Of a stretch of 64,000 bases of DNA, positions 1-31,601 are shown one piece after another (position 1 is the first letter of the stretch; every line of letters begins with the position of its first letter). The position numbers and the translations under genes were made by a program. Origin of the DNA: an archaeon (GTDB lineage Archaea > Nanobdellota > Nanobdellia > Woesearchaeales > UBA9642); contig JAZDHK010000005.1 in assembly GCA_043806035.1 (NCBI GenBank), positions 2,136 to 66,135 of the forward strand, given 5' to 3'. The notes under the pieces were generated by a model. The model was not told the DNA's origin, did not search any database, and saw only the letters and a list, made by a program, of their open reading frames with translations.

Positions 1-230
1 CGTATGCAGGTATCCTGCGCTTATTGTCGTGTACGCTGCGGTGTCGTTGATGAGCGTTGGCAGTGTGAGATTTCCTCCATCCGTGCCATTGCCTAATTGG
101 CCATACGAATTGTCTCCCCAGCACAATACTCTGCTGTCGTTTGTTCGAATGGCGCACGTGTGTCTTTCTCCCGACGTGAGAGTGTCTGGCCTGACGAGCA
201 TGCCGGTAATGTTTGCTGCGCCATCAATGT
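1..230 (-). repeat. RCC1-like beta-propeller block 4 (partial, first blades only; continues beyond the window)
   Basis: The translation ends ...GERHTCAIRTNDSRVLCWGDNSYGQLGNGTDGGN...AAYTTISAGY at nt 1. Confidence 0.6.
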
Positions 231-3200
231 ACCAGGTGTAGTTGTAGACGAGCTTTTCCTCGAAAGGATCTGTGGCGTTGCAGTATCCGTACAAGGTGTC
301 GCTGTTGTTTGCGGATGGTGTTGGGATGATGCTTGCCGATATCATGGTTGGCTTGATGTACGTGAGTGTGTAATTCCCCTCGTCAGACCATTCCTCGTTG
401 CTGTCGGAATCATTGCCGAGGCAGTTCCACGTGTACGTGTCAGCATAGGGCAGGGTGAATGTCCAGTTCGTGCTGTTGATGATGCCACCCACGGCAGTGG
501 CGTTCGTAGTGATGAGGTCGTTTGTGCTGTTCCAAATGGAGAGCGTGAGCGCTGAGCTGTCCGTGTCATCCGTGATGTTGCACATGAATGCGTGTGTTGG
601 CTGCGTGGTGTTCGTCTGGTTTGCGGGACTGACGAGCTGCACTTTCAACGTTAAGTTCAGGATGCTGACTGAGCGCGTGCTCGTTGACAAATGTCCTGCC
701 GTGTCGATGGCGTACGCAGTGTACGTTTGGTTGCCATACTCGAGATTCGTGAAGTTATGATAGAGTGTGAATTCTGTGTTGTTGTACGAGGCGTTGATTT
801 CTTCCCAGGAGAGCTCGCGTGCGTAGATGCGCAGCTCATCCAGACTGCCGTTGAATCCACCTCCTCCAGACCAATACGAACCAAGCCTCAAGTTTGTCGT
901 CTGATTATATATCATGGCTCCTGGGAGAGTAGTGGTGGTGATGAGATTACCATCTCGGTATCCTTTCAGCGTTCCGCTGGCGTTGATGGTAAATGCAATG
1001 TGGCACCACGTCTGTGCAGGGCAAACACCTGCATTTGTGTAAGTTGCATCATTGCTACTGTTCTTGACACCAAATGCAGTCACGTTGGTGGCAGTTACGC
1101 CATAGATTAGCCAGGTCCAGCTGGAGGGTGAGTTCATAAGCATTATAGGATACGCCTGTTCAGCAGAGGCGTTCGGAGTGATATTCCAGTAGATCCAGAA
1201 CTCGAGCGTGAAGGGTACTGTGACATATGGTGTGTAATTGGCGATTGCGACATCGTATGTTACATTCGTTGCCTCACCGCCGTTGCTGAACCATAACGAG
1301 TTGCCAAACTTGCCAGCGGAGAAAGAGAATCCGCTTCCTGTTGAATTGGTGAGGTTTTTCTGCCCTGTTGAATTGTCGTAGACAGTGGTGTCGTTGACGG
1401 CGTCGAAGTTCCAGTACGCGCCTAACGTGTTGTTCCAGTCGAAGAACGCTGACGTGTTCGAGTAGTCGGTAATGGTGGTGTTGAGATACGCGTACGTTGC
1501 TGTCGTCAGTTCATTGTCTGGTGGTGTGGGATTCTCCCAGGTGATGACGGGTGGCAGGGTGTGGTTTACTGAGAAGGAAGTGTTTGCGGTGTTGCTGTTG
1601 TTGCTCGTGTCGTTTGCCCAGAGTGTTAGGTTGTATTGGCCGAGCTGCGTAAGATTAAGGAATGTGAGGGTGACGTTGCTCACTGCCGTGCTCGAGCTGA
1701 AGAGCAGGCTGCCGTCAGGATAGGTGATGTTGAACACGACATCACTAATTCCTGTGCCATCAGTCGCGGACCAGTTGATGTAAATGCTCTCGCTTCCCGC
1801 CTCAAGTATGCTGCTGTTCTTCTGGATGGCCAGCGTTGGGGCGACTTGGTCGAGTATGTGCGTGACGCTGCTGTTCAGCCACCTGCTCGTGAGCGTCGTG
1901 TTCGTGGCCATGCAGGATAACGTCCAATTCTCTCCCAGGCTCGTGAACGCATTGCCCAGAGTAGAAACGAGCAACTCTTGCGCTGAGGGCCAGCCTGGAT
2001 AGAAGCTTGCGGTGTTGTTGATGGGTGTGGGATTGTACATGCTGGTGGTGTTGCCATTGCCAAGCTGACCGTAGTCGTTGACGCCCCAGCACAGTACTTG
2101 TGAGTCGTTTGTCCTGATGCCACACGAACGATACGCTCTTGCGCTCACGCTCAGGTATGCTGCGCTGTCGTTGATGGGTGCGGGATTGGGATTGGTTCCT
2201 CCGCTGCTGCCATTGCCAAGCCGTCCATATCCGTTGCTTCCCCAGCACATGATTTGTGAGTCGTTCGCCCGGACGGCGCAGGTATGACCATATCCTGCGC
2301 TCACTGTCAGATATGCTGCGCTGTCGTTGATAAGTTGCGGGTTGAGAGCATTGCCTCCTGTGCTGCCGTTGCCGGTTGCACCGTCGCTATTGGCTCCCCA
2401 GCATTTGACGCTACCGTTGATGAGAATGCCGCAGGCATGATACTCTCCAGCGCTCACGCTCAGGTATGCTGCGCTGTCGTTGATAGGTGCTGGATTGTAA
2501 TGGTTTGTTTGCGTACCATCTCCTAACTGTCCGTTGCCGTTTCTTCCCCAGCATAACACTCGTGAGTCGTTTGTTCGTATGCCACACGTATACTCAATTG
2601 CTGCCGTTATGGTGATGTATGCTGCAGTATCATTGATGAGTGTTGGGTTGTACATGTTGGTGGTGTTGCCGTTGCCAAGCATGCCGTAGTTGTTCCTGCC
2701 CCAGCAGAGTGCTTTGCTGTCGTTTGCGCGTATGCCGCACGTGTGATAATTTCCTGCGCCAACTAGACTGTATGCTGTATCGTTGATGGGCCAGGGGTTC
2801 TTGTGCTGCGTGTCTGTGCCGTCTCCGAGCGCACCGTAAGGATTATATCCCCAGCACAGCACTTGAGAATCATTGGCACGAATGCCGCATGTGTGGGTGT
2901 AACCTGCACTTATTGCAGTATAGTTTGCACTGTCGTTGATGGGTATGGGATTGGGACTAGTTCCTCCATCACTACCGTTGCCGAGCATGCCCCACAAGTT
3001 GCTTCCCCAGCACAGCACTTGCGAATCATTCGCGCGTATGCCACACGTATGATACGTGCCAGCACTCAGTGTTCCTGCCTTGAACACCACACCATTCATG
3101 AAGGCCGTGCTGTCATTGTACCACGTGTAGTTGTACATGACCTTTCCACCAGTAGGATGCGTTGCGTTGCAATAACCAAGAAGGTTGTCCGTGTGGTTGG

Positions 3201-6200
3201 CGAACAATGCAGGACTGATGCGTACGCTGATGACAGTTATTGGCGTGTAGTTTATCGTGTAATTCCCTTCACTACTCCAGGCAGTGTTGTCAAAACTGTC
3301 ATTGCCCAAGCAATTCCACGTGAAAACGTCAGGATGGGGGAATGCGTACGACCAGCTCGTGCTGTTGCTCACTCCTGCCAGTGTTGTCACATTCGTCTGC
3401 AACGTTCCTGAACTGTTCCACACGTACACCGTCAATGCCTTCACTTGATAGTCGTCGGTGATGTTGCACGCGAGTGCATAACTGTCGTTGGTCGTGTTCG
3501 TCTGGTTGGCCGGGCTGACGAGATGCACGACAGGGGCAATGTCTTCCGTTATCAGTGTGCTGCTGCTGTTGAGCCAGGACGTCACTTGGCTGTTCTGGTC
3601 TGATGCGCTGCACGACAACGTCCAGTTCTCTCCCGTCTCGGTGAAGGCGCTTCCGATGACGCCGACGAGGACTTCCTTGCCCGCGGGGAAGCCGGGGAAG
3701 TAGCTGGAGGCGTCCGTGATGGTGGTTGGGTTAAGCTTTTGTGTGGTGTCGCCAATTCCAAGTTGTCCCCAATTATTATATCCCCAACAGAGTGCTTGAC
3801 CGTCGTTTGCTCGCACACCGCAACTGTAGTGTGCTCCTGCGGTGATGTACCTATACGTTGCGGTGTCGTTGATAAGGGCGGGATTAAGTCTGTCTGTTTG
3901 TGATCCGTCTCCTACTGCTCCGTTATCGTTTTTGCCCCAACAGAGTGCCATACTATCGTTGGCTCGAATGCCACAGGTGTGCTGCCAACCAGCATTCACA
4001 TCAGTATACGCACTCGTGTCATTGATGAGTGTGGGGTTGAGCCGTTGTGTTGTTGTCCCATCCCCCAGAGCGCCTTCCGTATTGTTTCCCCAGCAGAGGA
4101 CTCTGCTGTCATTGGCTCGAATGCCGCATGTATGCCGTCCAAAATCCCCTCCTCCGGTCGAGACCAGTCTGTACCCTGCCGTGTCGTTGATGGGTGTGGG
4201 GTTTTCTCTTTGTGTTTGTGTTCCGTCTCCTAATTGACCATTAGTATTATGACCCCAGCAGAGTACTCTGCTGTCGTTGGCTCGGATGCCGCACGAGTGG
4301 ATGTATCCTGCGCTTACTGACATATACGCGCCGCTGTCGTTGATGAGTGTTGGATTTGTTTTTGGTGTGTCCGTCGTTCCGTCTCCCGCTTGACCGACAT
4401 TGTTTTGGCCCCAGCAGAGCACGCGAGAATCGTTTCGTATAGCACAGGTGTGCACGCGCCCACCATAGATGCTTATGTAGGGAGTAGTATCGTTGATGGG
4501 TGTGGGCGTCCACATGTTGGTGGTGTTGCCATTGCCTAATTGGCCATTATCATTGTCTCCCCAGCAGAGTACTCTGCTGTCGTTAGCTCGAATGCCACAC
4601 GTATGATAATCACCAGAGCTAATAGTGCTGTATGCGCTGTCGTCTGCTGTCAGTGTCGGATTGAGCTTGTCATTTGGAGCATCGCCATCACCTATTTGAC
4701 CATTTGCATTGTCTCCCCAGCATAATACTCTGCTATCGTTCGCTCGAATACCACAGGTGTGCATACGTCCTGCGCTTATTGTTTCTGCCTTGAACAACGC
4801 GTTCTGGTAGATGATGGTGTTGTTGTACCAGGTGTAGTTGTACAGGACTTTGAGGTTTGCCGTGTGGCTTGCGTTGCAGTAGCCGAACAAGTTCAGGAGC
4901 GTGTCTGCCGTCGGCGTGGGATTGATTCTGCTGCCGTTCATTTCCGGATAGCTGATGCAGTCGTTGTTGCTGCAGAAATAGCCTTCGTCGCATTGGCTGT
5001 CATTGAAGCAGTCATGCCACGTTCCTTCAAGGCAGTAGTCGAGGTTGCTGTTCTCATCGACATCGAGGGGAATGGTATCATTCTCGTAGCAGCTCCTGTC
5101 AAAGACGCAACTATTCGTGATGTTGCAGCACGCGCTTGTAGTATTTGTGAATCCGGGAAGCCCTGAGGAAGAGGCTTGCGCGTAGAATTCTGTGCTGTCA
5201 TCGCCGCAGCAGTTGCTGTTGTACGTGCCATCACTCTGGCTCATGATGTCCCAGCTGAAGGAGGTGCTGTTGAGGATGTAGCAGCTCGCTCCGTTGCAAG
5301 CCGTGCTTCCTACTGTTTCGTCGCACGTGCATTGGCTGGCATCATCTGTTGAGAGGCTCGCGCCAGGATACGCTGACGTCAAGTACGGGCAGTAGATGAC
5401 CCTGCCCACCACTGGGCTGTCGCTATAATCAAGGATTTGTGCAGCGATAGTGTTCTCGTTCGTCGTTCCCCACCAGTTGCTCGTCGCATTCTGGTCTTTT
5501 GTTGTTCCCGACATTATCCAATCGTACGTCCCTCCGAAGACGTTGTTGTTTAGGAACGTGAGATTCTGGTCGTTTGTCGAGCTCAATGGGTAGACGATGT
5601 TGAACGTGTTGTTCGTGATGTTGCTCTGCACGACGTAGCTCATGTAATTCTCGTCAGCCAGCTTGAGCACGATGCCGTTGTAGTTGTAACGTATTCTGCT
5701 ATTGTTGATGGTGATGCCAATCACGTAACCTGTGCTGTCATCGTAATAGACGCCCGTGCCGCTGTTGTTCTCTATCGTGATGTTGTTGAATGTGTAGTCT
5801 TGCGAGGGAACTCCTTCGAGATAGACGCCATATTCTGAGCTGTTGGTTATCGTGACGTGTTGGACAGTTAATGCGCCAACATCTCCATCGAACGAAAGCC
5901 CTCTCGTCTGGTTTGTCGTCCCTCCCTTGAATGTGCCTCCGCTGATCGTTGTGCCAAAATCGTGAACGATGACGCTCCTGTTGAAGCCGTACACGTTGCA
6001 GTTGGTGAGGGAAGAGGCACCGTCTGCGAGTATGCCTGTGCCCGTTCCTTGATCGCCGCCGTAGATCCAGTAGTTGTTGCAGTCGACGGCCGCCCCGCTA
6101 GTGACAGTGATGCCTCCTGCAGGACAGCCCAGTCCCGTATCATTGGAAAGGTTGCCCGTGAAGTTCGTGTCTGTCGTTATCGTGTCTCCGCAGCCCACGA

Positions 6201-12200: not shown

Positions 12201-15200
12201 TTATGTTCTCTCCCACTTCTGGTGTCGGGTCTTCCCAAGTGATGTTTGGCAAGGCATAGTATGCTATGCTATAATTTTGGCCCCAGTTGCTGTTCCCTAC
12301 AGAGTCATTCCCTTCGCAATTCCAGGTGAAGCTGCCTTCGTACGGGAGGGTGACTGTCCAGTTCGTGCTGTTGCTCGTCCCCCCTACGCTGACGGTTGTG
12401 CGGCTGATGTTCCACCACATACCTTCCTCCCAGATTCTGGCGCTTGAAAGATAGGATCTTAATGTCTGCCAGTCGGTAGAGTTCCAGCATTGCCAATACG
12501 TATCTGTATTGTGCTGATCTGATTCAGCACGCAATTGCAGAGAAGTTTGGTCCCAGCACAATTGCGGTAGAGAGAGATTCATTGTGGCTTCATTATCCTT
12601 CACCTGCCAAAGACTGGTGGATTGTGCCCTGGCTGGCTTTGAGTAATTTACGTACATGTAGCCGGGCTCCTCCTCGTCAGGTAGGTAAGTTCCATACGAT
12701 TCGTAATTTCCATCGTTTAGATTACCTCCGTCCGTCCACATTCCTGTGAGTGCATATGCTCCCGTAGCCAAGCCGCCGCAACTCGTAAGGGTGTTCGCGC
12801 TTTCCTGGTAACACCATTCAGATATGTCCGCTGCGACATTATCTCCCGTGCTGTTCCACACGTACAATGTCACGTTGGCTATTCCTGCATTGTCCGTGAT
12901 GTTGCACGTGAACGTGTTGTCTGCGGTGATTGTGCGGGTCTGGTTGGCTGGACTCACGAGAGTTACTGTTGGAGGGGCACCGTCTATGGTGATCGTTTGC
13001 GTGCTCTTCGTCATGTTGCCGTTCTCATCGGTGGCCCATGCCGTGTAGCTGTACGTGCCGTTGTCAAGCTGAGTGAAGTTGTTCTCCAGCCTGAAGAGGC
13101 CATTGTTGTACGAGGCGTTGATTTCCTGCCAGGAAAGCACCCGTTGATGGATGCGTGCTTCGTCGACAATTCCTTTAAAGGGGTAGCCGCTGCTGCCAAT
13201 TTTTACTGATGAATTTGAAGGGTACAGGTCTGTCATTCCTGCTGTTGCTGTCTGCTTGTCGCCATTGATGTAGACACTGACGTTGTAGCTCTCATTGAGG
13301 GTGAACACGTAATGATACCACGTCCCTACCGTTGCAGAGGCATCTGATATGACGCCACTCATTGTACTTGTTGAATTCCTGAAAGCAACGTTGGTTTTAT
13401 TGTCTGAAGCTAGGCCGTAGATGAGCCAAGAATACCAGGGGGTTTCCGAATGCCACTTGCCAAAGATGTAACTCGCGGTGCCCGTCTCGTTCGGCAGTAC
13501 GTCGTATTTGAACCATATCTCTACAGTGAGCGGTGCAGTTATGAATGTGCCGTTCGCGCCGGCTGCGGACAATGTGGCGCCGGTGCTGAAGTTGAGTCCT
13601 TTGCCATATCGTCCTGTGCTGATGTTGCTCGTGGAGAGTCCTGCTCCAAATGTTGCAAAATAATTGTTGCTCGAATTATCAAGTATGCCTGACGTGTTGT
13701 AGTACTCGAAATTCCAGTACGCGCCTAACGTGTTGTTCCAGTCGAAGAATGCGGACGTGTTCAGGCTGGCGTTCACCGTTGCGTTCAAGTATGCCCAGTC
13801 ATTGGTTGTGGTTGCTCCATTTTCTGGCGTTGGATACTCCCACGTGATGTTTGGCGGATTATACGGTGGGCCTATGGTTGTTGCCGAGCTGTTCAGCCAG
13901 GTGCTGTTAGAGAAGCCATCCTGTGCCTGGCAGGAAAGGATCCAACTATCACCATTCGTTGTGTGGCGGTTGTGCTGCATGCTTACGAACACTTCCTGTC
14001 CTGACGGGAAGCCAGGCATGTAGCTTGACGTGCTATTGACATAGACCGGACTATTACGCTGTGTGTTCGTGCCATCGCCAAGTTCATAGTAGTAGTTTCC
14101 TCCCCAGCATTTCGCCGTGCCGTTCAGCAACACGCCGCAAGTAGAGAATGAGTTAAATGCTGCACTATTATCCCCGCCAGCGTCTACAATCACATATGAT
14201 GCCGTGTCATCAATGAGCACTGGGGAATCCCGCTCTGTAGCGTCACCATGACCTCCTTCACCCACATAGTCAATTCCCCAGCATAATACTCTGCTGTCGT
14301 TTGCTCGAATACCGCAAGCATCAGTTATGCTTACTGTTATCCATGAATAAGCAGCAGTGTCAGTCGTCTGTTTCGGATTAGGTTCATTGCCGGTAGCCGA
14401 TCCAATACCCACTTGTCCCATGCTGTTATCTCCCCAGCAGAGCACTCTCGAGTCGTTTGCTCGAATGCCACACGTCACGCCAATCCCGTTACTAAAACTT
14501 TCAATAGTTATCATGGAGTACGCACTCGTATCATTAATGAGTGTTGGATTGTTTTTTTGTGTTGTGCTGCCATCGCCAAGTTGGCCATTACCATTCAATC
14601 CCCAACATAATACTCTGCTGTCGTTTGCTCTGATGCCACACGTGCTGTCTCCACCGACAGAGATGCTCGAGAATGAAGACGTAGTGTTGATGAGTGTCGG
14701 ATTAATTCTATCTGTATCCTCAGTGCCGTCTCCCAATTGTCCGTAGGTGTTGCTTCCCCAGCAGAGCACTCGTGAATCGTTGGCTCGGATGCCGCACGTC
14801 GTGCCCCATGTGTTTGGAGCACTAGGCCATCCGCCCACACCAACTTGTGTATACGCTGCCGTGTCATTAATGAGCGTTGGATTGAGCTTGTCTGTTGTCG
14901 TGCCATCACCTAACTGTCCACGTTGATTGTCTCCCCAGCATAATACTCTGCTGTCGTTTGCTCGTATGGCGCAGGTGTGTACGTTGCTTGCCGAGACCAT
15001 GAGATACGCGCTCGTATCGTTGATGGGTATGGGATTGTGGCTGTTGCCTCCGGTGCTGCCGTTGCCAAGCTGGCCGTACGTGTTGTCTCCCCAACACAGA
15101 ATGTATGAGTCATTCGCACGAATGCCACACGTATGGACGCCTCCGGTCGTTATGGTGTTTGCTTTGAATAATCTGCCTGAGGTGTTGAGTACATCATTCC

Positions 15201-17964
15201 TGTACCATGTATAGTTGTAGATAACTTTTGGTTCTTCAGACGAGTTCGTCGTGCCGTTGCAGTAGCCGTAGAGGTCGTCGGTGTCGTTCGCTGTTGAATT
15301 GGGGTTGATCCTGCTCGTGCTCATGTTCGCTTGCGATGCATCATTGAACGCATATGCCGTCTCGTTCCCGAACGTGAATTGTTGTACGTGCTTGCCCGCA
15401 GTGTGCACCTTCACTGTCCACGTTGCCGTTTCATTGCACGAATAGTCCTCGTACAGGTACGAGATGTGTTCGCTTCTGTTCGAGAAATCAGCGACGGGCA
15501 TCGTTTCTGTTTCCGTGACGTAGTAGGAATGCTCGGTGCGGTTCTCTGCCTTGCTGAACAGCGTCGCGTTGCCGCATGCGAGTGAGAGTATTTCGAGATC
15601 GTCTTCCGTTTCAGGATTATCATTGCCCTCCTCCAGATACGTGGTGCCGTTGATAGCTGCAATGCTCAAGTTACCCTCTCCTGACGTGTTGATGCTGACC
15701 TGCCACAGCCCTCCCACATACGGGTAGCTCTGCACGTTGAGGATGGTAATGCTAACTTCGTACGTCTGGTTGCTCAGCGAAGGAGTAATCCATGAGATGT
15801 AGTCAATCAACCCGTTGTTGTTCTCATCATAATACGAAACGCCCTCCACCTTTACTCGGGTATTGTTCACGAGCCAGTAGAGCGTGATGCTCTCCCGTCT
15901 CACATCTGGAATTGCCGTGTACGTGAAGATGTCCGTGTAGTGCACGTCTGAAGAAACCACGACTTGTTTCCTTCCTTGCACGAATGCTGTTTCCGTGCTT
16001 GTTGGCCCTTCCGTGTAGTATTCTACCTGGATGTGCTGGGCCTCTTCGTGAACGGTAATAGTTATGCTGTCGCTTGTATCCACTCGTGTTTCCTGTTCGG
16101 GAACGGAGAAGTCAGCAATCACATTGCCCGTGATGAGACCGTCCTCTGCAGATTCGGCAGGCGGAGCGCCTTCTCTCGTTATTTTCTCTTCAGGAATTTC
16201 TACTACTGTATTGTTGGTGATCTCTTTCGCAGAGAGATTGTATGCGAGCACAGGGATGGTGGTGGTGAAGTTCTGCACTATCTCCTCTGCCCGTATGTCT
16301 TCCACCCAGCGTACTGGTTTGTTGATGATGACCATTCTCGTGAGGTTGCGCAGGAAACTCGGCAGCGTCGCATTCGTTCTGTTCTGCGTGATGTTAATCA
16401 GGAAAACGTTGCTCTTCACGAGCGATTCGCCGTCAGTAGCATAGATGAACGTTGCATACTCCCCCTCCCGTCCAGAGAATGAGATAGATTCTCCGTGTAC
16501 CTCGACAGTGAGGTCTGTGCTCTTGGTGCTGAACACTAGCGGATCATGATCGGGGTCGAGGAAGTGCGTGCTGGCGTTGATGGTCAGTGTTTCATTCTCC
16601 TCGAGCGTGTAGTTGCCGACTTGTGCGATTTGCTCTGGCTCTCTGTTTCCTGCCGTGTAGGTGATGCTGTCGATGGTGATGCTGCCCTCTACCTCGATGT
16701 ACAGGAGTGCCTTGTCCAACATCAGACTGCATGCCTGGCCGCACACATTGTCAAAGGAGAACGGCACGAGTTCTGAAACATTGGTTGCATTGCTTACGTT
16801 CGTGCTCAGGTTCTGCTCAAGCTGGGTGATATTCTCTACGAGGGTTTCGTTCTTGATGAGCGTCTCATTCTCAACTTCGCTGCCAATCGTCACGTTTTCA
16901 GGCACGGTCTCGTTCAGCGTTGCGTTTGCGTCTGTGGTCTCATTCGGGATCAGTGTGGTGTTCTCCGTGATAGCTGTGGTGTTCTCTGGGATGATGGTTG
17001 CATTCTCTGCAGTTGCATTCACCAATTCATTCGCTGTTTCATTCATGCTTTCGTTCAACGTTGCATTCAAGGGATGCTCTTGCGTCTCATTCTGTGTCTC
17101 GTCAATGATGGGCTGGCTGATGTTTTCTTCAGTGAGGTTTTCTGCTAGCTCAAGGGGAGTCTCTGGCATGTCCTGCTCGGAAGATGGTTCTGTGCTGTTT
17201 TCGGAAACGTTGTCAGAGACGATTTCTTCAACAATCATTTCATCTGTGTGTGTGTCAAAAGAAGTATTGAGAGCAGTGTCTGCTGGTGTTTCTTGAAGTG
17301 GTGTTTCGGGAATTTGCTCTGCTGGTGTGCTTTCTTCCTGGACTGGCGGTTGCGTTGTTTCCTCGATGACGTCTTGAGGGACAGGTTCTGGTGCAGTGGC
17401 GGTTGTTATTTCTTCCGGCGGCAGTTCTTGCTCAGGAGGCGTTTCTTCAATGACTCTTCCCGTCAGTAAGTTCTGCTCGTTCTTCTGTTCTGTCGTGAAG
17501 AGCAACATGCGCTCTCCATCGGTGAGCAAGTAAATGCGTGCAGTGCCCTGGCCGTGTCCGGTGATGTGTAGTCCGCTGACGTTCGTGAGTCCAGTGTCAT
17601 ACGCAGTGTTCTCAGTGAATGTCTTGTTGATGAACAAGATTTTTTCTTGCGCAAACGTGAGCTTGCCGGTGATGCCCGCATAGTTGATCATGCCGACGAG
17701 GAGCAGGCCGAAGAGCAGGACGGTTATGGCAAGAAGCGGTGTGTGCCTGCTTTCAGTTCTTGGCTGACGCTTGAGATGCCTGATCTCTTCTTCTACTTCC
17801 TTGTAGTATTGTGTCTCTGGTTTGCCGTTGAAGAGCTTGTCGATGTGCTCTTGATAGTCCTGATAGGATATCTTTCGTTCATTGAGCAACTTGTTGAGTT
17901 TGCTCTGTACATGCAAGGTCTTTTCCTTTAGCTGTTCAAGCTTTCGTGCTCTACTTGCGTGCAT
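1..17964 (-). CDS. Giant membrane-anchored cell-surface or adhesin-like protein, partial (at least 5988 aa in window; the 3' end lies beyond the window start). Domain order: N-terminal ~75-aa charged/coiled segment, one TM helix, acidic NxS/T-rich linker, four 7-bladed RCC1-like beta-propellers, at least five LamG/ConA-like lectin domains, two parallel beta-helix (PbH1) regions, and recurring Ig-like 'SPANQTNTT..CNITDD..WNS' and 'SAFFDWNN' modules.
   Basis: Manual reverse-strand translation from ATG (plus-strand 'cat') at 17962-17964 gives MHASRARKLEQLKEK...HTPLLAITVLLFGLLLVGMINYAGI (TM). It continues in one frame with no stop down to nt 1. The ORF track lists no minus-strand ORF of at least 60 aa beginning near 17964, which is expected because the track appears to list only ORFs that end in a stop inside the window. 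Repeats such as HTCGIRANDSRVLCWGDNxxGQLGDG (RCC1 blades) and DExRIxxRxLSxxEInASYNnG (LamG C-terminus) are plainly readable. The plus-strand 'MAIRIVSPAQYSAVV...' ORFs are their antisense shadows. An in-frame TAG sits 22 codons upstream of the ATG. Confidence 0.85.
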   Translation of the reverse strand, partial: MHASRARKLEQLKEKTLHVQSKLNKLLNERKISYQDYQEHIDKLFNGKPETQYYKEVEEEIRHLKRQPRTESRHTPLLAITVLLFGLLLVGMINYAGITGKLTFAQEKILFINKTFTENTAYDTGLTNVSGLHITGHGQGTARIYLLTDGERMLLFTTEQKNEQNLLTGRVIEETPPEQELPPEEITTATAPEPVPQDVIEETTQPPVQEESTPAEQIPETPLQETPADTALNTSFDTHTDEMIVEEIVSDNVSENSTEPSSEQDMPETPLELAENLTEENISQPIIDETQNETQEHPLNATLNESMNETANELVNATAENATIIPENTTAITENTTLIPNETTDANATLNETVPENVTIGSEVENETLIKNETLVENITQLEQNLSTNVSNATNVSELVPFSFDNVCGQACSLMLDKALLYIEVEGSITIDSITYTAGNREPEQIAQVGNYTLEENETLTINASTHFLDPDHDPLVFSTKSTDLTVEVHGESISFSGREGEYATFIYATDGESLVKSNVFLINITQNRTNATLPSFLRNLTRMVIINKPVRWVEDIRAEEIVQNFTTTIPVLAYNLSAKEITNNTVVEIPEEKITREGAPPAESAEDGLITGNVIADFSVPEQETRVDTSDSITITVHEEAQHIQVEYYTEGPTSTETAFVQGRKQVVVSSDVHYTDIFTYTAIPDVRRESITLYWLVNNTRVKVEGVSYYDENNNGLIDYISWITPSLSNQTYEVSITILNVQSYPYVGGLWQVSINTSGEGNLSIAAINGTTYLEEGNDNPETEDDLEILSLACGNATLFSKAENRTEHSYYVTETETMPVADFSNRSEHISYLYEDYSCNETATWTVKVHTAGKHVQQFTFGNETAYAFNDASQANMSTSRINPNSTANDTDDLYGYCNGTTNSSEEPKVIYNYTWYRNDVLNTSGRLFKANTITTGGVHTCGIRANDSYILCWGDNTYGQLGNGSTGGNSHNPIPINDTSAYLMVSASNVHTCAIRANDSRVLCWGDNQRGQLGDGTTTDKLNPTLINDTAAYTQVGVGGWPSAPNTWGTTCGIRANDSRVLCWGSNTYGQLGDGTEDTDRINPTLINTTSSFSSISVGGDSTCGIRANDSRVLCWGLNGNGQLGDGSTTQKNNPTLINDTSAYSMITIESFSNGIGVTCGIRANDSRVLCWGDNSMGQVGIGSATGNEPNPKQTTDTAAYSWITVSITDACGIRANDSRVLCWGIDYVGEGGHGDATERDSPVLIDDTASYVIVDAGGDNSAAFNSFSTCGVLLNGTAKCWGGNYYYELGDGTNTQRNSPVYVNSTSSYMPGFPSGQEVFVSMQHNRHTTNGDSWILSCQAQDGFSNSTWLNSSATTIGPPYNPPNITWEYPTPENGATTTNDWAYLNATVNASLNTSAFFDWNNTLGAYWNFEYYNTSGILDNSSNNYFATFGAGLSTSNISTGRYGKGLNFSTGATLSAAGANGTFITAPLTVEIWFKYDVLPNETGTASYIFGKWHSETPWYSWLIYGLASDNKTNVAFRNSTSTMSGVISDASATVGTWYHYVFTLNESYNVSVYINGDKQTATAGMTDLYPSNSSVKIGSSGYPFKGIVDEARIHQRVLSWQEINASYNNGLFRLENNFTQLDNGTYSYTAWATDENGNMTKSTQTITIDGAPPTVTLVSPANQTRTITADNTFTCNITDNAGIANVTLYVWNSTGDNVAADISEWCYQESANTLTSCGGLATGAYALTGMWTDGGNLNDGNYESYGTYLPDEEEPGYMYVNYSKPARAQSTSLWQVKDNEATMNLSLPQLCWDQTSLQLRAESDQHNTDTYWQCWNSTDWQTLRSYLSSARIWEEGMWWNISRTTVSVGGTSNSTNWTVTLPYEGSFTWNCEGNDSVGNSNWGQNYSIAYYALPNITWEDPTPEVGENITTAWAYLNATITSLLNTSAFFDWNRSLVAYYSFEYYNDTHVFDNSTYGYNATFTNMTPSPIGEGKFGQGVTFTGGNASYLNVSSNENLLEDYTEMTICLWFKRADDGLGTTQVLLRDRHGDNDNFTQLIWQESNSLIFGCKRAGTEYSVGLSDSILLADTWYYGCGTYNSTSMRVYVNGQLNDSLANGNCSLSRTNPNWVTIGSGSYCCGFNGSIDELKIWNRTLSWQEINASYNSGLYQLKNNFTDVTLGIASRTYNYTAWAIDQNGSTVKDARQSSTTACTSPSGNETLSQATNCADSNLAVDALTISSDAALNLTNTNLTVNVLNITGNLTLQNSTLRVNGTTSVANGAIFISRDGGSTLWFNDNLTINGTVIWDNETIRMNGTENGSANIIVQDAGNLSTNLSNITNGDVAEAKYEISADQTARLSIINTSIENVGWNLATGMTIAAQNFTYINSSAYQTTPAYPFQINLTTYNRIMPSNLVYYGRNDTLFLCTGCTLYVSNWTLLAGSIVKSASTPAGNGSINVANLNYTYSSSTLTYFTSINDNTVGANISGSNATPSKGDWGSINSTTTYHFEWMQVSYASGRPYLDGPTAGMIIYDNIFKENDGYINFNTITEFKKNLIINCTDGLKGKQINYEAFIVASNTFDGILGVAIEEIGSANYPQNSITNNLFLNTNTSISFNDSEVLDTYVHDYNAHYNVACRYYNQTEDNCTNQTYSNEINLTDNPLVAANGNSHYLNQSSPIINAGSYYGGSPLASSGYGTNPDGMSGDLSPLDIGYHYYGYRIPPYITVNSPANDATVSSVNLNISVNGTLPSTVRFFGSMNASQLDTSVLRYNLSITNTTSIYPWTSAPIAADDNTVLLVHFDNLSEYGENDTFARDYSGNDNNATCDSCPVMDITGGKFGGAYNFSGEEYVEVPYSSSLALSNYTVAAWVNVDNDGDNNCVLSTRIGATDELFNFKIMKSSIQGSIGNGSDWLKETAACSRSADVGTWVQIVYVVHDGGYEIYVNGLRCDSGEFEGVPLLIAATNNLTIGECLDGSEFMSGSIDDVAVWDRNLSAEEVYYLYTMRNGAYYWMATANDSQLQNATGTYNFTLNASPNIVVSLDSPADASTNVKFTGDAASPFSCTAATAYSTVNDITLYAGTVGWQNVSYQSVSGFSANTTADFSNNINPVGLLMDKALSLGCYATNNASQSNWSTNKTVSGFSLGNFSQGTTLNGIANITIDDTRQAAINNGQTTFLQYFDYGPGDDFRANSGEVANYDGFSASLTYESMNGTAFLGCSNLCELRYPDSKNMDYGTVTFWFRKSYSGTGAFTLLQIYGSSIYHLTLSDINPSIMYAANVTLRHFKTVQTITANSGIASSGWHMYAVVWNKSLSDGEITLYRDGSKLVNSSGDLFPGADIGTLSVNISIGANMSLVNDAAGYYDEIAIYDAAYSSSVISQLYTNQSHTRFGNYSSQVFDIGSNASVWYTLSAATNDVGNITFQARNCDDAACNGENFTGPSGSNSTYYTDLTGQELNASTSRYFQYKAFFGREITSSSQPELYAVNITYLANDSVNCTPLSYGFNVLSTCSFSDQALIINGSLDIGSTGYLNLSNVTLIVNGNTRVRNGGTFKTVNGGSTIWQNGNLTINGTYILNRETLRMNGSSDGTYGITVQGSGTFNVSNSSNITNGETSTADYAFVVQSGATFNVQDSLISRAGYSDTTGSKGLEISAANAILARCNLSYIKSGIHLLGGSANLTGNNISMTTESYTGTMYGIDVTGGSATIQNNYISTDLNQTTHLLEVASNSNTFRNNTLAGVNSTILAFIPSRQHNTFDDMTGIITNNVAGTCIYSSAATNNTFTNFSFTDCNASRMLYLTGSGNYNLTLINPIGYNTSNITFSSAGATKLYVKWFADLFVGKLSGTAVSGATVLAYDNSYALFMNTTTDASGLITGQSFYEYSQNSTQVYPDNVTYFTNYSFIASRAGYATTHNKTWNLTQSQIGTGRINLSIVGCGDTITTDTNFTGNLSNDTGLGCPAGGITVTSGAAVDCNNYWIYGGDQGTGTGILADGASSLTNCNVYGFNRSVIVHDFGTTISGGTFKGGTTNQTRGLSFDGDVGALTVQHVTITNSSEYGVYLEGVPSQDYTFNNITIENNSGTGVYYDDSTGYVIGITINNSRIRYNYNGIVLKLADENYMSYVVQSNITNNTFNIVYPLSSTNDQNLTFLNNNVFGGTYDWIMSGTTKDQNATSNWWGTTNENTIAAQILDYSDSPVVGRVIYCPYLTSAYPGASLSTDDASQCTCDETVGSTACNGASCYILNSTSFSWDIMSQSDGTYNSNCCGDDSTEFYAQASSSGLPGFTNTTSACCNITNSCVFDRSCYENDTIPLDVDENSNLDYCLEGTWHDCFNDSQCDEGYFCSNNDCISYPEMNGSRINPTPTADTLLNLFGYCNASHTANLKVLYNYTWYNNTIIYQNALFKAETISAGRMHTCGIRANDSRVLCWGDNANGQIGDGDAPNDKLNPTLTADDSAYSTISSGDYHTCGIRANDSRVLCWGDNDNGQLGNGNTTNMWTPTPINDTTPYISIYGGRVHTCAIRNDSRVLCWGQNNVGQAGDGTTDTPKTNPTLINDSGAYMSVSAGYIHSCGIRANDSRVLCWGHNTNGQLGDGTQTQRENPTPINDTAGYRLVSTGGGDFGRHTCGIRANDSRVLCWGNNTEGALGDGTTTQRLNPTLINDTSAYTDVNAGWQHTCGIRANDSMALCWGKNDNGAVGDGSQTDRLNPALINDTATYRYITAGAHYSCGVRANDGQALCWGYNNWGQLGIGDTTQKLNPTTITDASSYFPGFPAGKEVLVGVIGSAFTETGENWTLSCSASDQNSQVTSWLNSSSTLITEDIAPVVHLVSPANQTNTTNDSYALACNITDDYQVKALTVYVWNSSGTLQTNVTTLAGVSNSTSWSYAFPHPDVFTWNCLGNDSFDNTAWSSEGNYTINYTPITVISVRISPALFANHTDNLLGYCNATHPTGGKVMYNYTWYNDSTAFMNGVVFKAGTLSAGTYHTCGIRANDSQVLCWGSNLWGMLGNGSDGGTSPNPIPINDSANYTAISAGYTHTCGIRANDSQVLCWGYNPYGALGDGTDTQHKNPWPINDTAYSLVGAGNYHTCGIRANDSKALCWGRNNYGMLGNGNTTNMYNPTLINDTAAYITITAAIEYTCGIRTNDSRVLCWGRNGNGQLGDGTQTNHYNPAPINDSAAYLSVSAGEYHACGILINGSVKCWGANSDGATGNGSTGGNALNPQLINDSAAYLTVSAGYGHTCAVRANDSQIMCWGSNGYGRLGNGSSGGTNPNPAPINDSAAYLSVSARAYRSCGIRTNDSQVLCWGVNDYGQLGNGNTTSMYNPTPINNTASFYPGWPSAQELLVSTLGNAFTSLGENWTLSCMATNTTLTSRWLNSSVTHILDQVAPTLAIQKNSSILEAGSESIYINWSATDGTGISDVVFNITYPDGSLLFSSSTAVSNVTLTFLNLTQLGQYNLTLWANDTSNNSNTANTSFSVNHTLPPVITWENPTPPDNELTTATYAYLNTTITDYSNTSAFFDWNNTLGAYWNFDAVNDTTVYDNSTGQKNLTNSTGSGFSFSAGKFGNSLWFSNGGEATNVTYDVAIANYTPYVTVPFTLEFWIYWNITPNASAEQAYPIMLMNSPSSWTWLIYGVTATNVTAFGVKNSSNDATYTNAGVCPAQTWCHIAFTINASGTLKGYRDGNLITTTTLPGAMIYNQTTNLRLGSYWSGGGGFNGSLDELRIYARELSWEEINASYNNTEFTLYHNFTNLEYGNQTYTAYAIDTAGHLSTSTRSVSILNLTLKVQLVSPANQTNTTQPTHAFMCNITDDTDSSALTLSIWNSTNDLITTNATAVGGIINSTNWTFTLPYADTYTWNCLGNDSDSNEEWSDEGNYTLTYIKPTMISASIIPTPSANNSDTLYGYCNATDPFEEKLVYNYTWYIDGAANITGMLVRPDTLTSGERHTCAIRTNDSRVLCWGDNSYGQLGNGTDGGNLTLPTLINDTAAYTTISAGYLHT
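2000..3075 (-). repeat. RCC1-like beta-propeller block 3 (7 blades)
   Basis: The run TCGIRANDSQVLCWGSN ... SCGIRTNDSQVLCWGVNDYGQLGNG was read directly. Coordinates are approximate. Confidence 0.7.
3700..4790 (-). repeat. RCC1-like beta-propeller block 2 (7 blades)
   Basis: The run HTCGIRANDSRVLCWGDNANGQIGDG ... SCGVRANDGQALCWGYNNWGQLGIG was read directly. The plus-strand shadow 'MAIIIVSPAEYSAVV' (4540..4725) is its antisense. Coordinates are approximate. Confidence 0.7.
14020..15190 (-). repeat. RCC1-like beta-propeller block 1 (7 blades: CGIRANDSRVLCWGxN...GQLGDG)
   Basis: Seven consecutive repeats of about 50 aa read in the translation. Plus-strand shadows include 14357..14746 and 14927..15214. 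Coordinates are approximate to about 50 nt. Confidence 0.7.
16810..17470 (-). repeat. Low-complexity acidic E/T/P/N-rich linker, dense in N-glycosylation sequons (NET/NAT/NES/NVS...)
   Basis: The translation reads EETPPEQELPPEEITTATAPEPVPQDV...NATLNESMNETANELVNATAENATIIPENTTAITENTTLIPNETTDANATLNETVPENVT. It is a stalk-like region between the TM anchor and the first globular domains. Confidence 0.6.
17670..17739 (-). other. Predicted single transmembrane helix (LLAITVLLFGLLLVGMINYAGI) anchoring the giant protein, N-terminus in the cytoplasm
   Basis: A hydrophobic stretch of about 23 residues follows a K/R/E-rich N-terminus. Everything downstream is NxS/T-rich and therefore predicted to be extracellular. 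Confidence 0.6.
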
Positions 17965-18226: not shown

Positions 18227-18290
18227 ATCATTTATAAAGTTTTCTTGTCTAATTATAGAGAAAAATGTGTGTATGAGCACAATTATATTT

Positions 18291-27896: not shown

Positions 27897-27947
27897 GCAC
27901 TAAGGATCGCCTATACCTATATAAATCATGCTCTTCTTCCAGGCAGC

Positions 27948-30694: not shown

Positions 30695-30773
30695 GGTGTC
30701 CTCCTCTGCTGTTCATCTTTCACTATTTTTTTTACTATAGTAATTCTTTTACAGTACTGTGAGAAATTGGCAG

Positions 30774-31570: not shown

Positions 31571-31601
31571 ATGGACGAGCAGATGGATTGATGGGTATGG
31601 C

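What the first reader, a model, noticed from the sequence alone, without database searches (positions are those of the whole stretch)
1..17964. About 18-kb single ORF encoding a giant, glycosylation-sequon-rich, membrane-anchored mosaic surface protein (RCC1 propellers, LamG lectins, beta-helices)
One uninterrupted minus-strand reading frame spans at least 5988 codons and continues past the window edge. Its architecture is cytoplasmic N-terminus, TM helix, acidic stalk, then repeated globular modules: four 7-bladed RCC1 propellers, at least five LamG domains, two PbH1 beta-helix regions and Ig-like modules. Hundreds of NxS/T sequons are present. This is typical of host-attachment or cell-cell-contact proteins of small episymbiotic archaea. 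Proteins of this size and composition are rare and usually unannotated. It is the best candidate in the window for an undescribed surface or host-interaction system.
Basis: partly seen in the sequence, partly recalled or inferred. Interest (0 to 1): 0.85.

Follow-up and report, generated by a model that had tools for sequence, protein, structure and literature searches.

The report
Giant glycosylated surface protein, DPANN archaeon
The 18-kb reading frame is real and encodes most of a >6,700-residue, membrane-anchored, sugar-decorated surface protein of a tiny DPANN archaeon; it is an extreme member of a large, unnamed family of variable surface proteins that probably mediate attachment to other cells.

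Summary
The minus strand is open from 1 to 18033, with ATG at 17964. This gives 5,988 codons with no stop, against 234-252 stops in the other frames.

Pfam confirms three complete RCC1 propellers plus one cut by the window edge, five LamG domains, Ig-like domains and one beta-helix. There is one N-terminal transmembrane segment. NxS/T sequons number 345 against 130±10 expected.

The protein equals the first 5,988 residues of GenBank MFH1173689.1, a 6,700-aa entry called [quoted passage not shown]. That entry is cut by its contig end, so the C-terminus is unknown. The host genome looks like a Woesearchaeota/Nanoarchaeota-type DPANN archaeon.

New findings:
- Residues ~440-885 form a conserved membrane-proximal cassette with no Pfam model.
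- The cassette occurs in 2,859 protein clusters, nearly all from Woesearchaeota/Nanoarchaeota where named. Distal domains vary, and lengths reach 7,665 aa.
- A small helix-turn-helix (HTH) gene overlaps the giant's start codon. Homologues sit directly upstream in 32 of 77 family loci.

Host attachment is plausible but inferred. Giant LamG-rich DPANN surface proteins are already described as a class, so I rate this a new variant of a known kind, of moderate interest.

The parts
17951..18187 (-). Small HTH gene (78 aa, GTG start). Its stop overlaps the giant's ATG by 14 nt, so it is probably co-transcribed.
   Evidence: ORF. Pfam HTH_23 at 25.8 bits (cut-off 24.6) and Sigma70_r4_2-like. Homologues at 33-61% identity lie directly upstream, on the same strand, of 32/77 family genes.
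18230..18237 (-). TATA-like box (TTTATAAA), about 45 nt upstream of the HTH gene's GTG. Candidate promoter of the HTH-giant unit.
   Evidence: Read directly from the sequence. Inference only.
1..17964 (-). Giant ORF, codons 1-5988. It continues beyond window position 1.
   Evidence: Identical to residues 1-5988 of P0189 = MFH1173689.1 (6,700 aa, partial).
17749..17964 (-). Cytoplasmic N-terminal tail (aa 1-72), K/E/Q-rich.
   Evidence: Sequence. Conserved in paralogue P0290 (38% identity over 106 aa).
17680..17748 (-). The only transmembrane segment (aa 73-95). Read as a signal anchor, N-in/C-out.
   Evidence: Kyte-Doolittle scan. Basic residues lie on the N-terminal side.
16648..17679 (-). 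Juxtamembrane region plus an acidic P/E/T-rich and N-x-T-rich low-complexity stalk (aa 96-439).
   Evidence: 26 sequons and 48 D/E residues in aa 251-500.
16375..16647 (-). Cadherin/Big_9-like Ig domain (aa 440-530).
   Evidence: Weak Pfam Big_9 hit (E=0.03-0.05). Conserved in 22 family members.
15310..16362 (-). Conserved membrane-proximal 'anchor module' (aa 535-885). Motifs: PV(K/R)W, EYYTxxP, DxNNNxLIDYIEWxVPxLSNQTYE, ILNVQSYPxVGGxW.
14005..15309 (-). RCC1 beta-propeller 1 (aa ~886-1320).
   Evidence: Pfam WD40_RLD 222.8 bits, RCC1, RCC1_2. Five CWGxN blade motifs plus a sixth blade in the DNA repeat family.
13555..13947 (-). 'X' domain, copy 1 (aa 1340-1470). No family assignment.
   Evidence: Internal repeats with 1878-1996 and 5450-5562 at 46-48% identity. 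No Pfam match.
13117..13551 (-). LamG domain 1 (aa 1472-1616).
   Evidence: Pfam Laminin_G_3, E=5e-20.
12826..13107 (-). Ig-like (Big_7/Big_3_3) spacer (aa 1620-1713).
   Evidence: Pfam Big_7 at 24.5 bits and Big_3_3.
12355..12828 (-). W/C-rich domain of unknown fold (aa 1713-1870). It recurs at aa ~6490-6640 of P0189.
   Evidence: No Pfam or PDB match. Homologues in P0290 and P0314 and in metagenome loci L079-L082.
11275..12333 (-). Second X-LamG-Ig supermodule (aa 1878-2230). LamG 2 lies at 1996-2152.
   Evidence: Pfam Laminin_G_3, E=1.9e-24. Internal repeats.
9865..11277 (-). Beta-helix-like region 1 (aa 2230-2700). Unconfirmed.
   Evidence: Sequence pattern only. aa 2258-2383 is homologous to 3525-3661 (hhalign 98.8%). 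No Pfam or PDB hit. AF2 failed.
8998..9456 (-). LamG domain 3 (aa 2837-2989).
   Evidence: Pfam Laminin_G_3, E=3e-24.
7861..8286 (-). LamG domain 4 (aa 3227-3368).
   Evidence: Pfam Laminin_G_3, E=4e-13.
6565..7467 (-). Beta-helix-like region 2 (aa 3500-3800). Unconfirmed.
5470..6207 (-). Right-handed beta-helix (aa ~3920-4165).
   Evidence: Pfam Beta_helix PF13229, E=8e-10, 39 bits against a cut-off of 25.9. Best stretch aa 3977-4142.
4945..5367 (-). Cys-rich module (aa 4200-4340; CCGDD...DYCxxGxWxDC).
   Evidence: Sequence. Conserved in P0001 (38% identity) and in L059/L066. No Pfam match.
3685..4932 (-). RCC1 beta-propeller 2, seven blades (aa 4345-4760).
   Evidence: Pfam. Seven CWG motifs. 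UVR8 at E=1.6e-40 and the ACR4 ectodomain at 9e-19.
1825..3222 (-). RCC1 beta-propeller 3 (aa 4915-5380).
   Evidence: Pfam WD40_RLD 240 bits. Six CWG motifs with a one-blade gap between 5188 and 5292.
535..1617 (-). Third X-LamG-Ig supermodule (aa 5450-5810). LamG 5 lies at 5579-5724.
   Evidence: Pfam Laminin_G_3, E=2e-20. Internal repeats.
1..354 (-). Start of RCC1 propeller 4 (aa 5871-5988), cut by the window edge.
   Evidence: Pfam. It is completed (7 RCC1 stretches) in the extra 712 aa of P0189.

Best explanation
This is the main part of a cell-surface protein of more than 6,700 residues from a Woesearchaeota/Nanoarchaeota-like DPANN archaeon.

Anchoring. A 72-residue cytoplasmic tail and a single signal-anchor helix hold the protein in the membrane with the rest outside. 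An acidic, heavily N-glycosylated stalk follows. Then comes a conserved cassette of Ig-like beta-sandwich domains (aa ~440-885), which carries the protein away from the membrane.

Distal array. The outer ~5,800 residues are a lineage-specific string of binding modules:
- four RCC1 propellers
- at least five LamG lectin-type domains
- at least one beta-helix
- Ig spacers
- Cys-rich and W/C-rich modules of unknown fold

This array most likely gives multivalent binding to glycans or proteins on another cell (a host or partner) or on a surface.

Regulation. The gene is probably transcribed together with, and perhaps regulated by, a small HTH protein whose gene overlaps its start codon.

Shown: the ORF, the domain identities, the single N-terminal hydrophobic segment, the sequon enrichment, membership of a large DPANN-restricted family with a conserved anchor and variable payload, and the HTH linkage.

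Inferred: topology, glycosylation, binding, the nature of the partner, and regulation.
For: - ORF and identity to the GenBank partial protein.
- Domains.
- TM segment and composition (pI 4.36).
- Sequons: 345 against 129.7±9.6; reversed motif not enriched; neighbours 15-fold poorer.
- Archaeal housekeeping neighbours: Hel308 with an intein, NMD3, diphthamide synthase, aIF-2B, HerA.
- CysRS relatives.
- Anchor module: 5 hits in the first search; 59 with a profile, none with a Pfam domain over the module; 2,859 clusters in the exhaustive search.
- Genome scan: 317 stretches in species-representative genomes. The best 78 are nearly all labelled Woesearchaeota, Nanoarchaeota or Nanoarchaeia, with several per genome.
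- The module always lies 200-1,300 aa from the N-terminus.
- 111 of 122 complete-start members have an N-terminal hydrophobic segment. Family median sequon density is 4.4 per 100 aa.
- Payload varies. RCC1 was found only in this protein and its paralogue P0290. LamG occurs in 12/81 and 29/142 members.
- The anchor model is all-beta and resembles Ig-like stalk domains of Gram-positive adhesins and pilins.
- HTH gene linkage.
- Literature. LamG and giant surface proteins are proposed host-contact factors in DPANN (PMC10266531, PMC6792436). Laminin_G_3 dominates archaeal proteins over 5,000 aa (PMC11573180).
Against: - There is no experimental or expression evidence.
- No Woesearchaeota-type organism with this family has a demonstrated host, to my knowledge.
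- The C-terminus is missing, so a second anchor, an enzymatic domain or an ATPase domain cannot be excluded. Some family members do carry a C-terminal TM plus a basic tail.
- By my estimate about 56% of the residues have no significant Pfam assignment.
- One beta-helix could be an enzyme rather than a binder.
- The neighbourhood includes purine-nucleotide genes (GuaA, PurA) and a NiFe-hydrogenase-like cluster. This does not settle whether the organism is an obligate episymbiont.
Confidence: 0.7

Rival explanations
1. Envelope or coat protein. A structural or protective glycoprotein, halomucin-like or S-layer-associated, that shields or shapes the cell rather than binding a specific partner.
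For: Extreme size, a dense sequon load, an acidic pI and a repetitive modular build. The conserved membrane-proximal cassette could be an envelope-integration module.
Against: The family is multi-copy within genomes. One MAG, CAYUHF, gave five loci. Distal modules differ between members. That pattern is typical of specificity determinants, not of a single lattice or coat protein. The modules are lectin, propeller and beta-helix binding types.
Confidence: 0.12
2. Surface-tethered polysaccharide-harvesting protein. The beta-helix regions act as lyase or hydrolase modules and the LamG domains as carbohydrate-binding modules, for feeding on polymers.
For: Pfam Beta_helix hit. LamG belongs to the concanavalin-like lectin/glucanase superfamily. 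Weak CBM64 and G8 hits at E~0.15.
Against: There is no hit to any glycoside-hydrolase or lyase catalytic family. The unassigned regions have no solved-structure relatives by sequence. Four RCC1 propellers are not explained by this reading.
Confidence: 0.1
3. SPEARE-like effector or secretion device, as proposed for the nanohaloarchaeal giants. The ectodomain would bridge to the host and a C-terminal membrane/ATPase part would drive transfer.
For: The same broad class: a DPANN, giant, cell-bound protein with propellers and Ig-like domains (PMC10266531). The C-terminus is unknown. Some family members have a C-terminal TM segment plus a basic tail.
Against: No VirB4/TraG or other ATPase domain occurs in the available 6,700 aa. 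Thirty complete family loci show no conserved downstream partner gene. The N-terminus is a long-tail signal anchor rather than a Sec signal peptide.
Confidence: 0.05
4. Assembly or annotation artefact: repeats misassembled into an artificially long ORF.
For: This gene and its paralogue P0290 both end at contig ends, as expected if repeats break short-read assemblies.
Against: Internal DNA repeats are 60-87% identical, and the longest near-identical stretch is 57 nt. Ordered, intact Pfam domains run along the entire frame. Relatives of 4,000-7,665 aa exist in independent assemblies.
Confidence: 0.03

Closest known systems
Giant membrane-anchored extracellular ('SPEARE') proteins of Nanohaloarchaeota, such as SVXNc_0300 (9,409 aa) and BNXNv_0298 (8,880 aa) (PMC10266531, citing Hamm et al. 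2019)
   Same: DPANN archaea. Proteins of 5,000-9,400 aa. Cell-bound, acidic, built of beta-propellers plus Ig-like modules. Proposed to contact the host.
   Different: SPEARE proteins have an N-terminal Sec signal peptide, WD40/PQQ-type propellers, a C-terminal membrane part with a VirB4/TraG-like ATPase, and a downstream ATPase gene. Here there is an N-terminal signal anchor with a 72-aa cytoplasmic tail, RCC1 propellers, LamG and beta-helix modules, no ATPase in 6,700 aa, and an upstream HTH gene.
Archaeal 'huge proteins' (>=5,000 aa) carrying Laminin_G_3 (PMC11573180)
   Same: Archaeal, over 5,000 aa, with Laminin_G_3 as the recurring domain. Function not understood.
   Different: That survey describes one or a few LamG domains near the N-terminus. 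Here five or more LamG domains are spread along the chain and interleaved with RCC1 propellers. RCC1 is not mentioned in that paper's text.
LamG/PKD surface proteins of other DPANN (Nanohaloarchaeota SVXNc_0801 and others; Mia14; cited in PMC10266531 and PMC5498576) and the large Cys-rich surface proteins of Huberarchaeum (PMC6792436)
   Same: LamG-bearing or Cys-rich, membrane-bound surface proteins. They are predicted, not shown, to mediate recognition of and fixation to hosts.
   Different: They are much smaller. No shared anchor cassette was demonstrated.
Bacterial giant modular adhesins (RTX/Bap-type adhesins, Gram-positive MSCRAMM/pilin stalks such as SdrD, PrgB, AgI/II, CppA)
   Different: No sequence homology. 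Anchoring differs (a TM helix against sortase or T1SS retention). The organism is an archaeon with N-glycosylation sequons.
Extracellular RCC1-like propeller of the plant receptor kinase ACR4, and the UVR8 propeller
   Same: Seven-bladed RCC1 fold. ACR4 is a precedent for an extracellular RCC1-like propeller (phmmer E=9e-19; UVR8 E=1.6e-40).
   Different: These are eukaryotic single-propeller proteins with unrelated functions. Here four propellers sit within one archaeal surface protein.

Membership tests
RCC1 / RCC1-like domain beta-propeller (PF00415, PF13540, PF25390) | Tandem ~50-aa RCC1 repeats scoring above the Pfam gathering thresholds. | tested here: met
   RCC1 313.5 bits (cut-off 21.7), RCC1_2 265.7 (22) and WD40_RLD 435.2 (150) for the C-terminal half. 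134-157 bits for the N-terminal half.
RCC1 / RCC1-like domain beta-propeller (PF00415, PF13540, PF25390) | Seven blades forming one propeller, alignable over most of its length to a solved RCC1 fold. | tested here: met
   Seven blade motifs spaced 50-55 aa apart in propeller 2. aa 16-318 of the 381-aa query align to UVR8 residues 20-322 at E=1.6e-40. Propellers 1 and 3 show fewer regex matches, so their seventh blade is inferred.
Laminin_G_3 / concanavalin-like lectin (PF13385) | Near full-length match above the gathering score. | tested here: met
   Five stretches at E=4e-13 to 2e-24 (50-87 bits against a cut-off of 27.6), covering profile positions from 2-20 through 150-151 of 151.
Right-handed parallel beta-helix (PF13229, PbH1) | A match above the gathering score. 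| tested here: met
   aa 3977-4142, 39 bits against 25.9, profile positions 2-158 of 158.
   aa 2230-2700 and 3500-3800 gave no Pfam hit at E<=5 and no PDB sequence hit. The AF2 model had pLDDT 35.9. hhalign against the Pfam-positive region gave probability 0.2%. Only the sequence pattern suggests a beta-helix.
Nanohaloarchaeal SPEARE / giant secretion-associated proteins | A C-terminal membrane segment plus a VirB4/TraG-like ATPase domain. | tested here: not met
   No ATPase family was found in the 6,700 aa available. The true C-terminus is missing, so this holds only for the known part.
Nanohaloarchaeal SPEARE / giant secretion-associated proteins | A VirB4/TraG-family ATPase gene immediately downstream. 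| not testable with these tools
   The downstream end lies beyond the contig. In 30 complete relatives of the anchor family no conserved downstream gene exists.
Nanohaloarchaeal SPEARE / giant secretion-associated proteins | An N-terminal cleavable Sec signal peptide. | tested here: not met
   The hydrophobic segment starts at residue 72-73, after a long charged tail. That is too far in for a classical signal peptide. No dedicated predictor was run.
Unnamed Woesearchaeota/Nanoarchaeota 'anchor-cassette' surface-protein family (defined here) | A membrane-proximal module with the motifs EYYTxxP, DxNNNxLIDYIEWxVPxLSNQTYE and ILNVQSYPxVGGxW. | tested here: met
   Alignments. 35-47% identity to relatives. 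The profile search finds 2,859 clusters.
Unnamed Woesearchaeota/Nanoarchaeota 'anchor-cassette' surface-protein family (defined here) | The module lies near the N-terminus, behind an N-terminal hydrophobic segment, in a sequon-rich chain. | tested here: met
   Here the TM is at 73-95 and the module at 535-885. In the family, 111/122 members have an N-terminal hydrophobic segment and the median sequon density is 4.4 per 100 aa.
Unnamed Woesearchaeota/Nanoarchaeota 'anchor-cassette' surface-protein family (defined here) | A small sigma-70-region-4-like HTH gene directly upstream on the same strand. | tested here: met
   Window 17951-18187(-) overlaps the ATG. 32 of 77 family loci have one, often as a two-domain 150-190-aa protein.
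Archaeosortase / PGF-CTERM-type sorted surface proteins | A C-terminal tripartite sorting signal. | not testable with these tools
   The C-terminus is absent from the window and from the GenBank partial protein. The source contig could not be retrieved, and no extending metagenome contig was found.
   No DNA similarity between the gene and the remaining 46 kb of the window. No RT was found among the ORFs scanned against Pfam.

The most novel reading that the evidence does not exclude
The gene pair of a small HTH gene followed by an anchor-cassette surface-protein gene may be an undescribed, lineage-wide system of Woesearchaeota/Nanoarchaeota-type DPANN archaea. It has about 2,900 clusters and several copies per genome. 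A constant membrane-proximal cassette displays interchangeable binding payloads, and dedicated tandem-HTH regulators decide which paralogue is expressed. That would be an archaeal counterpart of variable-adhesin or host-range switching systems. The protein studied here would be its extreme form, having recruited four extracellular RCC1 propellers.
Probability: 0.2. Interest if true: 0.7.

Novelty: new variant of a known kind. Interest (0 to 1): 0.5.

Why it matters
DPANN archaea make up a large share of archaeal diversity, yet how most of them contact partners is unknown. The Woesearchaeota-type lineages remain, to my knowledge, uncultured.

This locus shows that one of their largest genes belongs to a big family with a conserved anchor and swappable binding modules, tied to a dedicated small HTH gene. 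That gives concrete handles:
- a profile for finding every member of the family
- an invariant epitope region (aa 535-885) for antibodies or cryo-ET labelling
- a candidate regulator to test

If the payloads determine partner specificity, cataloguing them could help predict host ranges from metagenomes.

The individual finding is not a surprise to specialists. Giant LamG-rich surface proteins are an acknowledged DPANN feature.

Tried and rejected
- Whole-protein homology search. The query was too long, and a 4,990-aa query timed out.
- Retrieving the source contig to read the C-terminus. Exact look-ups of GuaA, CysRS (P0006) and P0189 found no gene on record. Exact 60-mer scans of the genome and metagenome collections found nothing. 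A metagenome scan with the last 410 aa of P0189 found only 23-43% relatives. The C-terminus stays unknown.
- Structure of aa 1700-2840 (W/C-rich domain, X-LamG-Ig, beta-helix-like region), using an alignment of internal paralogues. pLDDT was 35.9, so the model is unusable and no fold search was run on it.
- PDB sequence searches of the unassigned regions 1700-1900, 1879-2185, 2190-2840 and 3369-4340. These gave nothing, or chance Sec61 hits at E>0.3.
- Low-stringency Pfam and NCBIfam scans of the unassigned regions. Only sub-threshold hits appeared: Big_9, CarboxypepD_reg, G8, CBM64, and the LamG-like part of TafC.
- hhalign of the beta-helix-like regions against the Pfam-positive beta-helix gave no signal.
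- The afdb50 fold library was unavailable.
- A DGR-type template repeat was not found.
- A conserved downstream partner gene in family loci was not found.
- Weak Ntox25 and ToxB_N hits inside RCC1 blades (E 0.01-0.09) were rejected as noise.
- The labels 'Bacteroidota bacterium' (P0001), 'bacterium' (L041) and 'uncultured Methanosarcinales archaeon' (many loci) on family members were treated as binning or naming labels, not as evidence of a wider distribution. This was not verified.
Full report

Yes. The minus strand is open from window position 18033 down to 1 (6,011 codons). The first ATG is at 17964, which gives 5,988 codons without a stop. The neighbouring frames tested over the same span contain 234-252 stops. 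No GTG or TTG start lies between 18033 and 17964, and a purine-rich AGAGGG sits just upstream of the ATG.

The product has a strongly skewed composition: T 11.8%, N 10.5%, S 9.5%, G 8.6%, pI 4.36. It has one hydrophobic 19-mer, at residues 72-95, preceded by a basic stretch.

- RCC1 propellers at ~886-1320, 4345-4760 and 4915-5380, plus the start of a fourth at 5871-5988.
- Laminin_G_3 at 1472-1616, 1996-2152, 2837-2989, 3227-3368 and 5579-5724.
- Ig-like Big domains.
- A right-handed beta-helix at 3977-4142.

Blade motifs (CWGxNxxGQLG) recur every 50-59 residues, and seven are countable in propeller 2. Propeller 3 shows six matches plus a one-blade gap, and propeller 1 shows five, so a seventh blade is inferred there. 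Propeller 2 aligns over most of its length with the UVR8 propeller (E=1.6e-40) and with the extracellular RCC1-like propeller of plant ACR4.

NxS/T sequons number 345, against 129.7±9.6 in 1,000 shuffles. The reversed motif is not enriched (125 against 129). Sixteen cytoplasmic proteins of the same window carry 0.37 sequons per 100 aa, against 5.76 here.

**2. Is it an assembly artefact?**

Probably not inside the window. Internal protein repeats are 40-64% identical. DNA repeats are 60-87% identical, and the longest near-identical stretch is 57 nt at 95%. That is far too diverged for repeat collapse. Intact domains follow one another along the entire frame.

**3. Where does it come from, and how long is it?**

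The neighbours are archaeal housekeeping genes:
- a Hel308-type helicase with an intein
- NMD3, diphthamide synthase, aIF-2B, HerA and Mre11-like genes
- a NiFe-hydrogenase-like cluster
- GuaA, PurA, TGT and the Asp-, Cys- and Ala-tRNA ligases

The CysRS at 60759-62195 is 100% identical to a GenBank protein, 'MAG: cysteine--tRNA ligase [archaeon]', on a 71,448-bp contig. The next hit is an unnamed metagenome protein at 67%. The best named relatives (61-62%) are labelled Nanoarchaeota or Woesearchaeota.

The exhaustive profile search returned P0189. Its first 5,988 residues are identical to the window's ORF. It is MFH1173689.1, 'MAG: LamG-like jellyroll fold domain-containing protein, partial [archaeon]', 6,700 aa, on the same 71,448-bp contig.

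The extra 712 residues complete the fourth RCC1 propeller (7 RCC1 stretches). They add what look like Ig-like domains, a second W/C-rich domain and the beginning of another 'X' domain, and then stop mid-domain. The true protein is therefore longer than 6,700 aa and its C-terminus is unknown.

All attempts to reach the contig or an extension failed.

A paralogue appears to come from the same MAG, judging by adjacent accessions and the same 'archaeon' label. It is MFH1173958.1 (P0290), 2,192 aa and also partial. It shares the cytoplasmic tail, the anchor, two RCC1 propellers and the W/C-rich domain at 38-79% identity.

**4. The conserved N-terminal cassette and its family**

*First search.* A search with residues 1-940 found only five relatives of 699-1,627 aa, with named sources 'Woesearchaeota archaeon', 'archaeon' and one 'Bacteroidota bacterium, partial'. 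All have an N-terminal hydrophobic segment, an acidic or N-x-T-rich stalk, and a conserved region matching residues ~540-880.

*Size of the family.* The exhaustive profile search finds 2,859 clusters at 50% identity with E<=1e-3, and 1,410 with E<=1e-30. Among the 142 newly retrieved sequences of the best 150 hits, the median length is 1,305 aa. Twenty-five are at least 3,000 aa, six are at least 5,000 aa, and the longest is 7,665 aa.

*Taxonomic spread.* In one-genome-per-species archaeal and bacterial genomes, 317 stretches encode the module. The best 78 loci are nearly all labelled Woesearchaeota, Nanoarchaeota or Nanoarchaeia. Some are 'uncultured Methanosarcinales' MAGs from a single pipeline; there is one Aenigmatarchaeota, one Pacearchaeota and one 'bacterium'. 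Several loci can come from one genome.

*Position and anchoring.* The module always sits 200-1,300 residues from the N-terminus. Of 122 members with a complete start, 111 have an N-terminal hydrophobic segment, and the median sequon density is 4.4 per 100 aa.

*Payload.* The distal part varies. RCC1 was found only in this protein and its paralogue. LamG occurs in 12/81 and 29/142 members, and the X, W/C-rich and Cys-rich modules in a handful. This is a 'constant anchor, variable payload' family, and the protein studied here is one of its largest members.

**5. What remains unassigned**

By my estimate from the domain map, roughly 56% of the residues have no significant Pfam hit. Internal comparison defines a repeated supermodule, X-LamG-Ig, at 1340-1713, 1878-2230 and 5450-5810.

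Other unassigned pieces:
- a W/C-rich domain (1713-1870)
- a Cys-rich module (4200-4340), shared with other Woesearchaeota-type proteins
- two beta-helix-like regions (2230-2700 and 3500-3800)

The N-terminal ~120 residues of those two regions are homologous to each other (hhalign 98.8%). I could not link them to the Pfam-positive beta-helix. The structure prediction of 1700-2840 failed (pLDDT 35.9). The unassigned regions have no solved relatives by sequence.

**6. A linked small HTH gene**

Immediately upstream on the same strand lies a 78-codon ORF (18187-17951, GTG start). Its stop overlaps the giant's ATG by 14 nt. It scores as an HTH_23/Sigma70_r4_2-type helix-turn-helix. A TTTATAAA box lies about 45 nt upstream of its start.

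Homologues at 33-61% identity (E down to 2e-19) lie directly upstream, on the same strand, of 32 of 77 evaluable family genes. They usually abut or overlap the start codon. They often take the form of a 150-190-aa protein with two copies of the domain. This count came from a single-sequence tblastn search, so it is a lower bound.

By contrast, no conserved downstream partner exists in 30 complete loci. The window holds only one copy each of the HTH gene and the anchor module. I found no description of this linkage in the papers I searched, but those searches were limited.

**7. Most likely function**

The shown facts are:
- an N-terminal signal anchor
- an acidic, sequon-rich stalk
- an Ig-like stalk cassette
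- a distal array of lectin-type, propeller and beta-helix modules
- a DPANN-restricted, multi-copy family with a variable payload

They fit a cell-surface, N-glycosylated, multivalent binding protein, that is, an adhesin in the broad sense. Published work on other DPANN proposes LamG-bearing and giant surface proteins as host-recognition and attachment factors (PMC10266531, PMC6792436). Laminin_G_3 is reported as the hallmark of archaeal proteins over 5,000 aa, with function 'not understood' (PMC11573180).

Attachment to a partner cell is therefore the best-supported reading, but it is inference. I put about 0.7 on 'surface binding protein' and about 0.45 on 'host or partner attachment' specifically. 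The HTH gene suggests local transcriptional control.

The rivals, treated in the Rival explanations section, are an envelope or coat glycoprotein, a surface-tethered polysaccharide-harvesting enzyme, a SPEARE-like secretion device, and an assembly artefact.

**8. Comparison with known systems**

*SPEARE giants.* The protein works like the nanohaloarchaeal giant 'SPEARE' proteins and like bacterial giant adhesins. It is not shown to be a member of either. It lacks the SPEARE signal peptide, and within 6,700 aa it lacks the VirB4-like ATPase. The family also has no conserved downstream ATPase gene.

*Generic folds.* RCC1, LamG and beta-helix membership is met by Pfam thresholds, but these are generic folds.

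*The family it does belong to.* It clearly belongs to the unnamed anchor-cassette family defined here.

*DGR.* A diversity-generating-retroelement mechanism was looked for and not found in the window.

**9. Verdict**

The structural interpretation is supported, and the functional interpretation is plausible but unproven. The sequence is already public and generically annotated, and the class (giant LamG-rich DPANN surface proteins) is known.

Three features go beyond what I found described:
- the conserved anchor cassette as a family of about 2,900 clusters
- its linkage to small HTH genes
- the recruitment of four extracellular RCC1 propellers

I rate this a new variant of a known kind, with interest 0.5.

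Noticed in passing
window 18475-18589 (+) and 18604-18707 (+): Two tRNA genes with introns of 44 and 31 nt in the anticodon loop. The loops read CU-GUU-A and CU-GAU-A, probably tRNA-Asn and tRNA-Ile. They sit between the giant/HTH unit and guaA. Rfam scores are 53.6 and 58 bits. ARAGORN missed both.
   Followed up: partly
window 21227-24322 (+): A Hel308-type archaeal helicase (Helicase_dom4_arc, HTH_61, HHH_5) interrupted by an intein with a LAGLIDADG homing-endonuclease domain.
   Followed up: no
window 42359-43240 (-), next to tRNA-Val 43405-43478 (-): A free-standing 293-aa LAGLIDADG_3 ORF adjacent to a tRNA gene. It may be a homing endonuclease or a remnant of a mobile intron or intein.
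   Followed up: no
window 27381-30035 (+): An 884-aa ORF that combines glutamine amidotransferase and asparagine-synthase domains with a C-terminal diphthamide-synthase (Diphthami_syn_2) domain. This looks like an unusual fusion.
   Followed up: no
window 30548-35469 (+): A cluster resembling a cytoplasmic group-3 [NiFe] hydrogenase: two FAD/NAD-binding subunits, a 4Fe-4S subunit, an Oxidored_q6 small subunit and a NiFeSe large subunit. With GuaA and PurA nearby, this suggests the organism is not among the most reduced DPANN.
   Followed up: no
window 50770-52146 (+), 59130-60614 (-), 45192-46091 (+), 25561-26172 (+), 47110-47802 (+): ORFs of 203-494 aa with no Pfam match at E<=0.01 apart from one sub-threshold MFS hit for 59130-60614. 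That ORF lies next to the HerA/Mre11-like pair at 56372-59085.
   Followed up: no
P0230, P0263, P0318, P0315, P0238 (family members): Some complete family members have a C-terminal hydrophobic segment followed by a basic tail, in addition to the N-terminal one. Their ectodomain may therefore be tethered at both ends. The same could hold for the unseen C-terminus of this protein.
   Followed up: partly
P0185 (3,226 aa family member), residues 3124-3157: A Sigma70_r4_2 HTH match at the extreme C-terminus of a family surface protein. This is probably a read-through or fusion with the HTH gene of the next family gene, which hints at tandem HTH-surface-protein arrays.
   Followed up: no
loci L001, L002, L007 and many others: Many MAGs that carry the Woesearchaeota-type anchor family are titled 'uncultured Methanosarcinales archaeon' (binchicken and SRP co-assembly MAGs). 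One is titled 'bacterium' and one protein 'Bacteroidota bacterium'. These are probably naming or binning issues rather than true hosts of the family.
   Followed up: no
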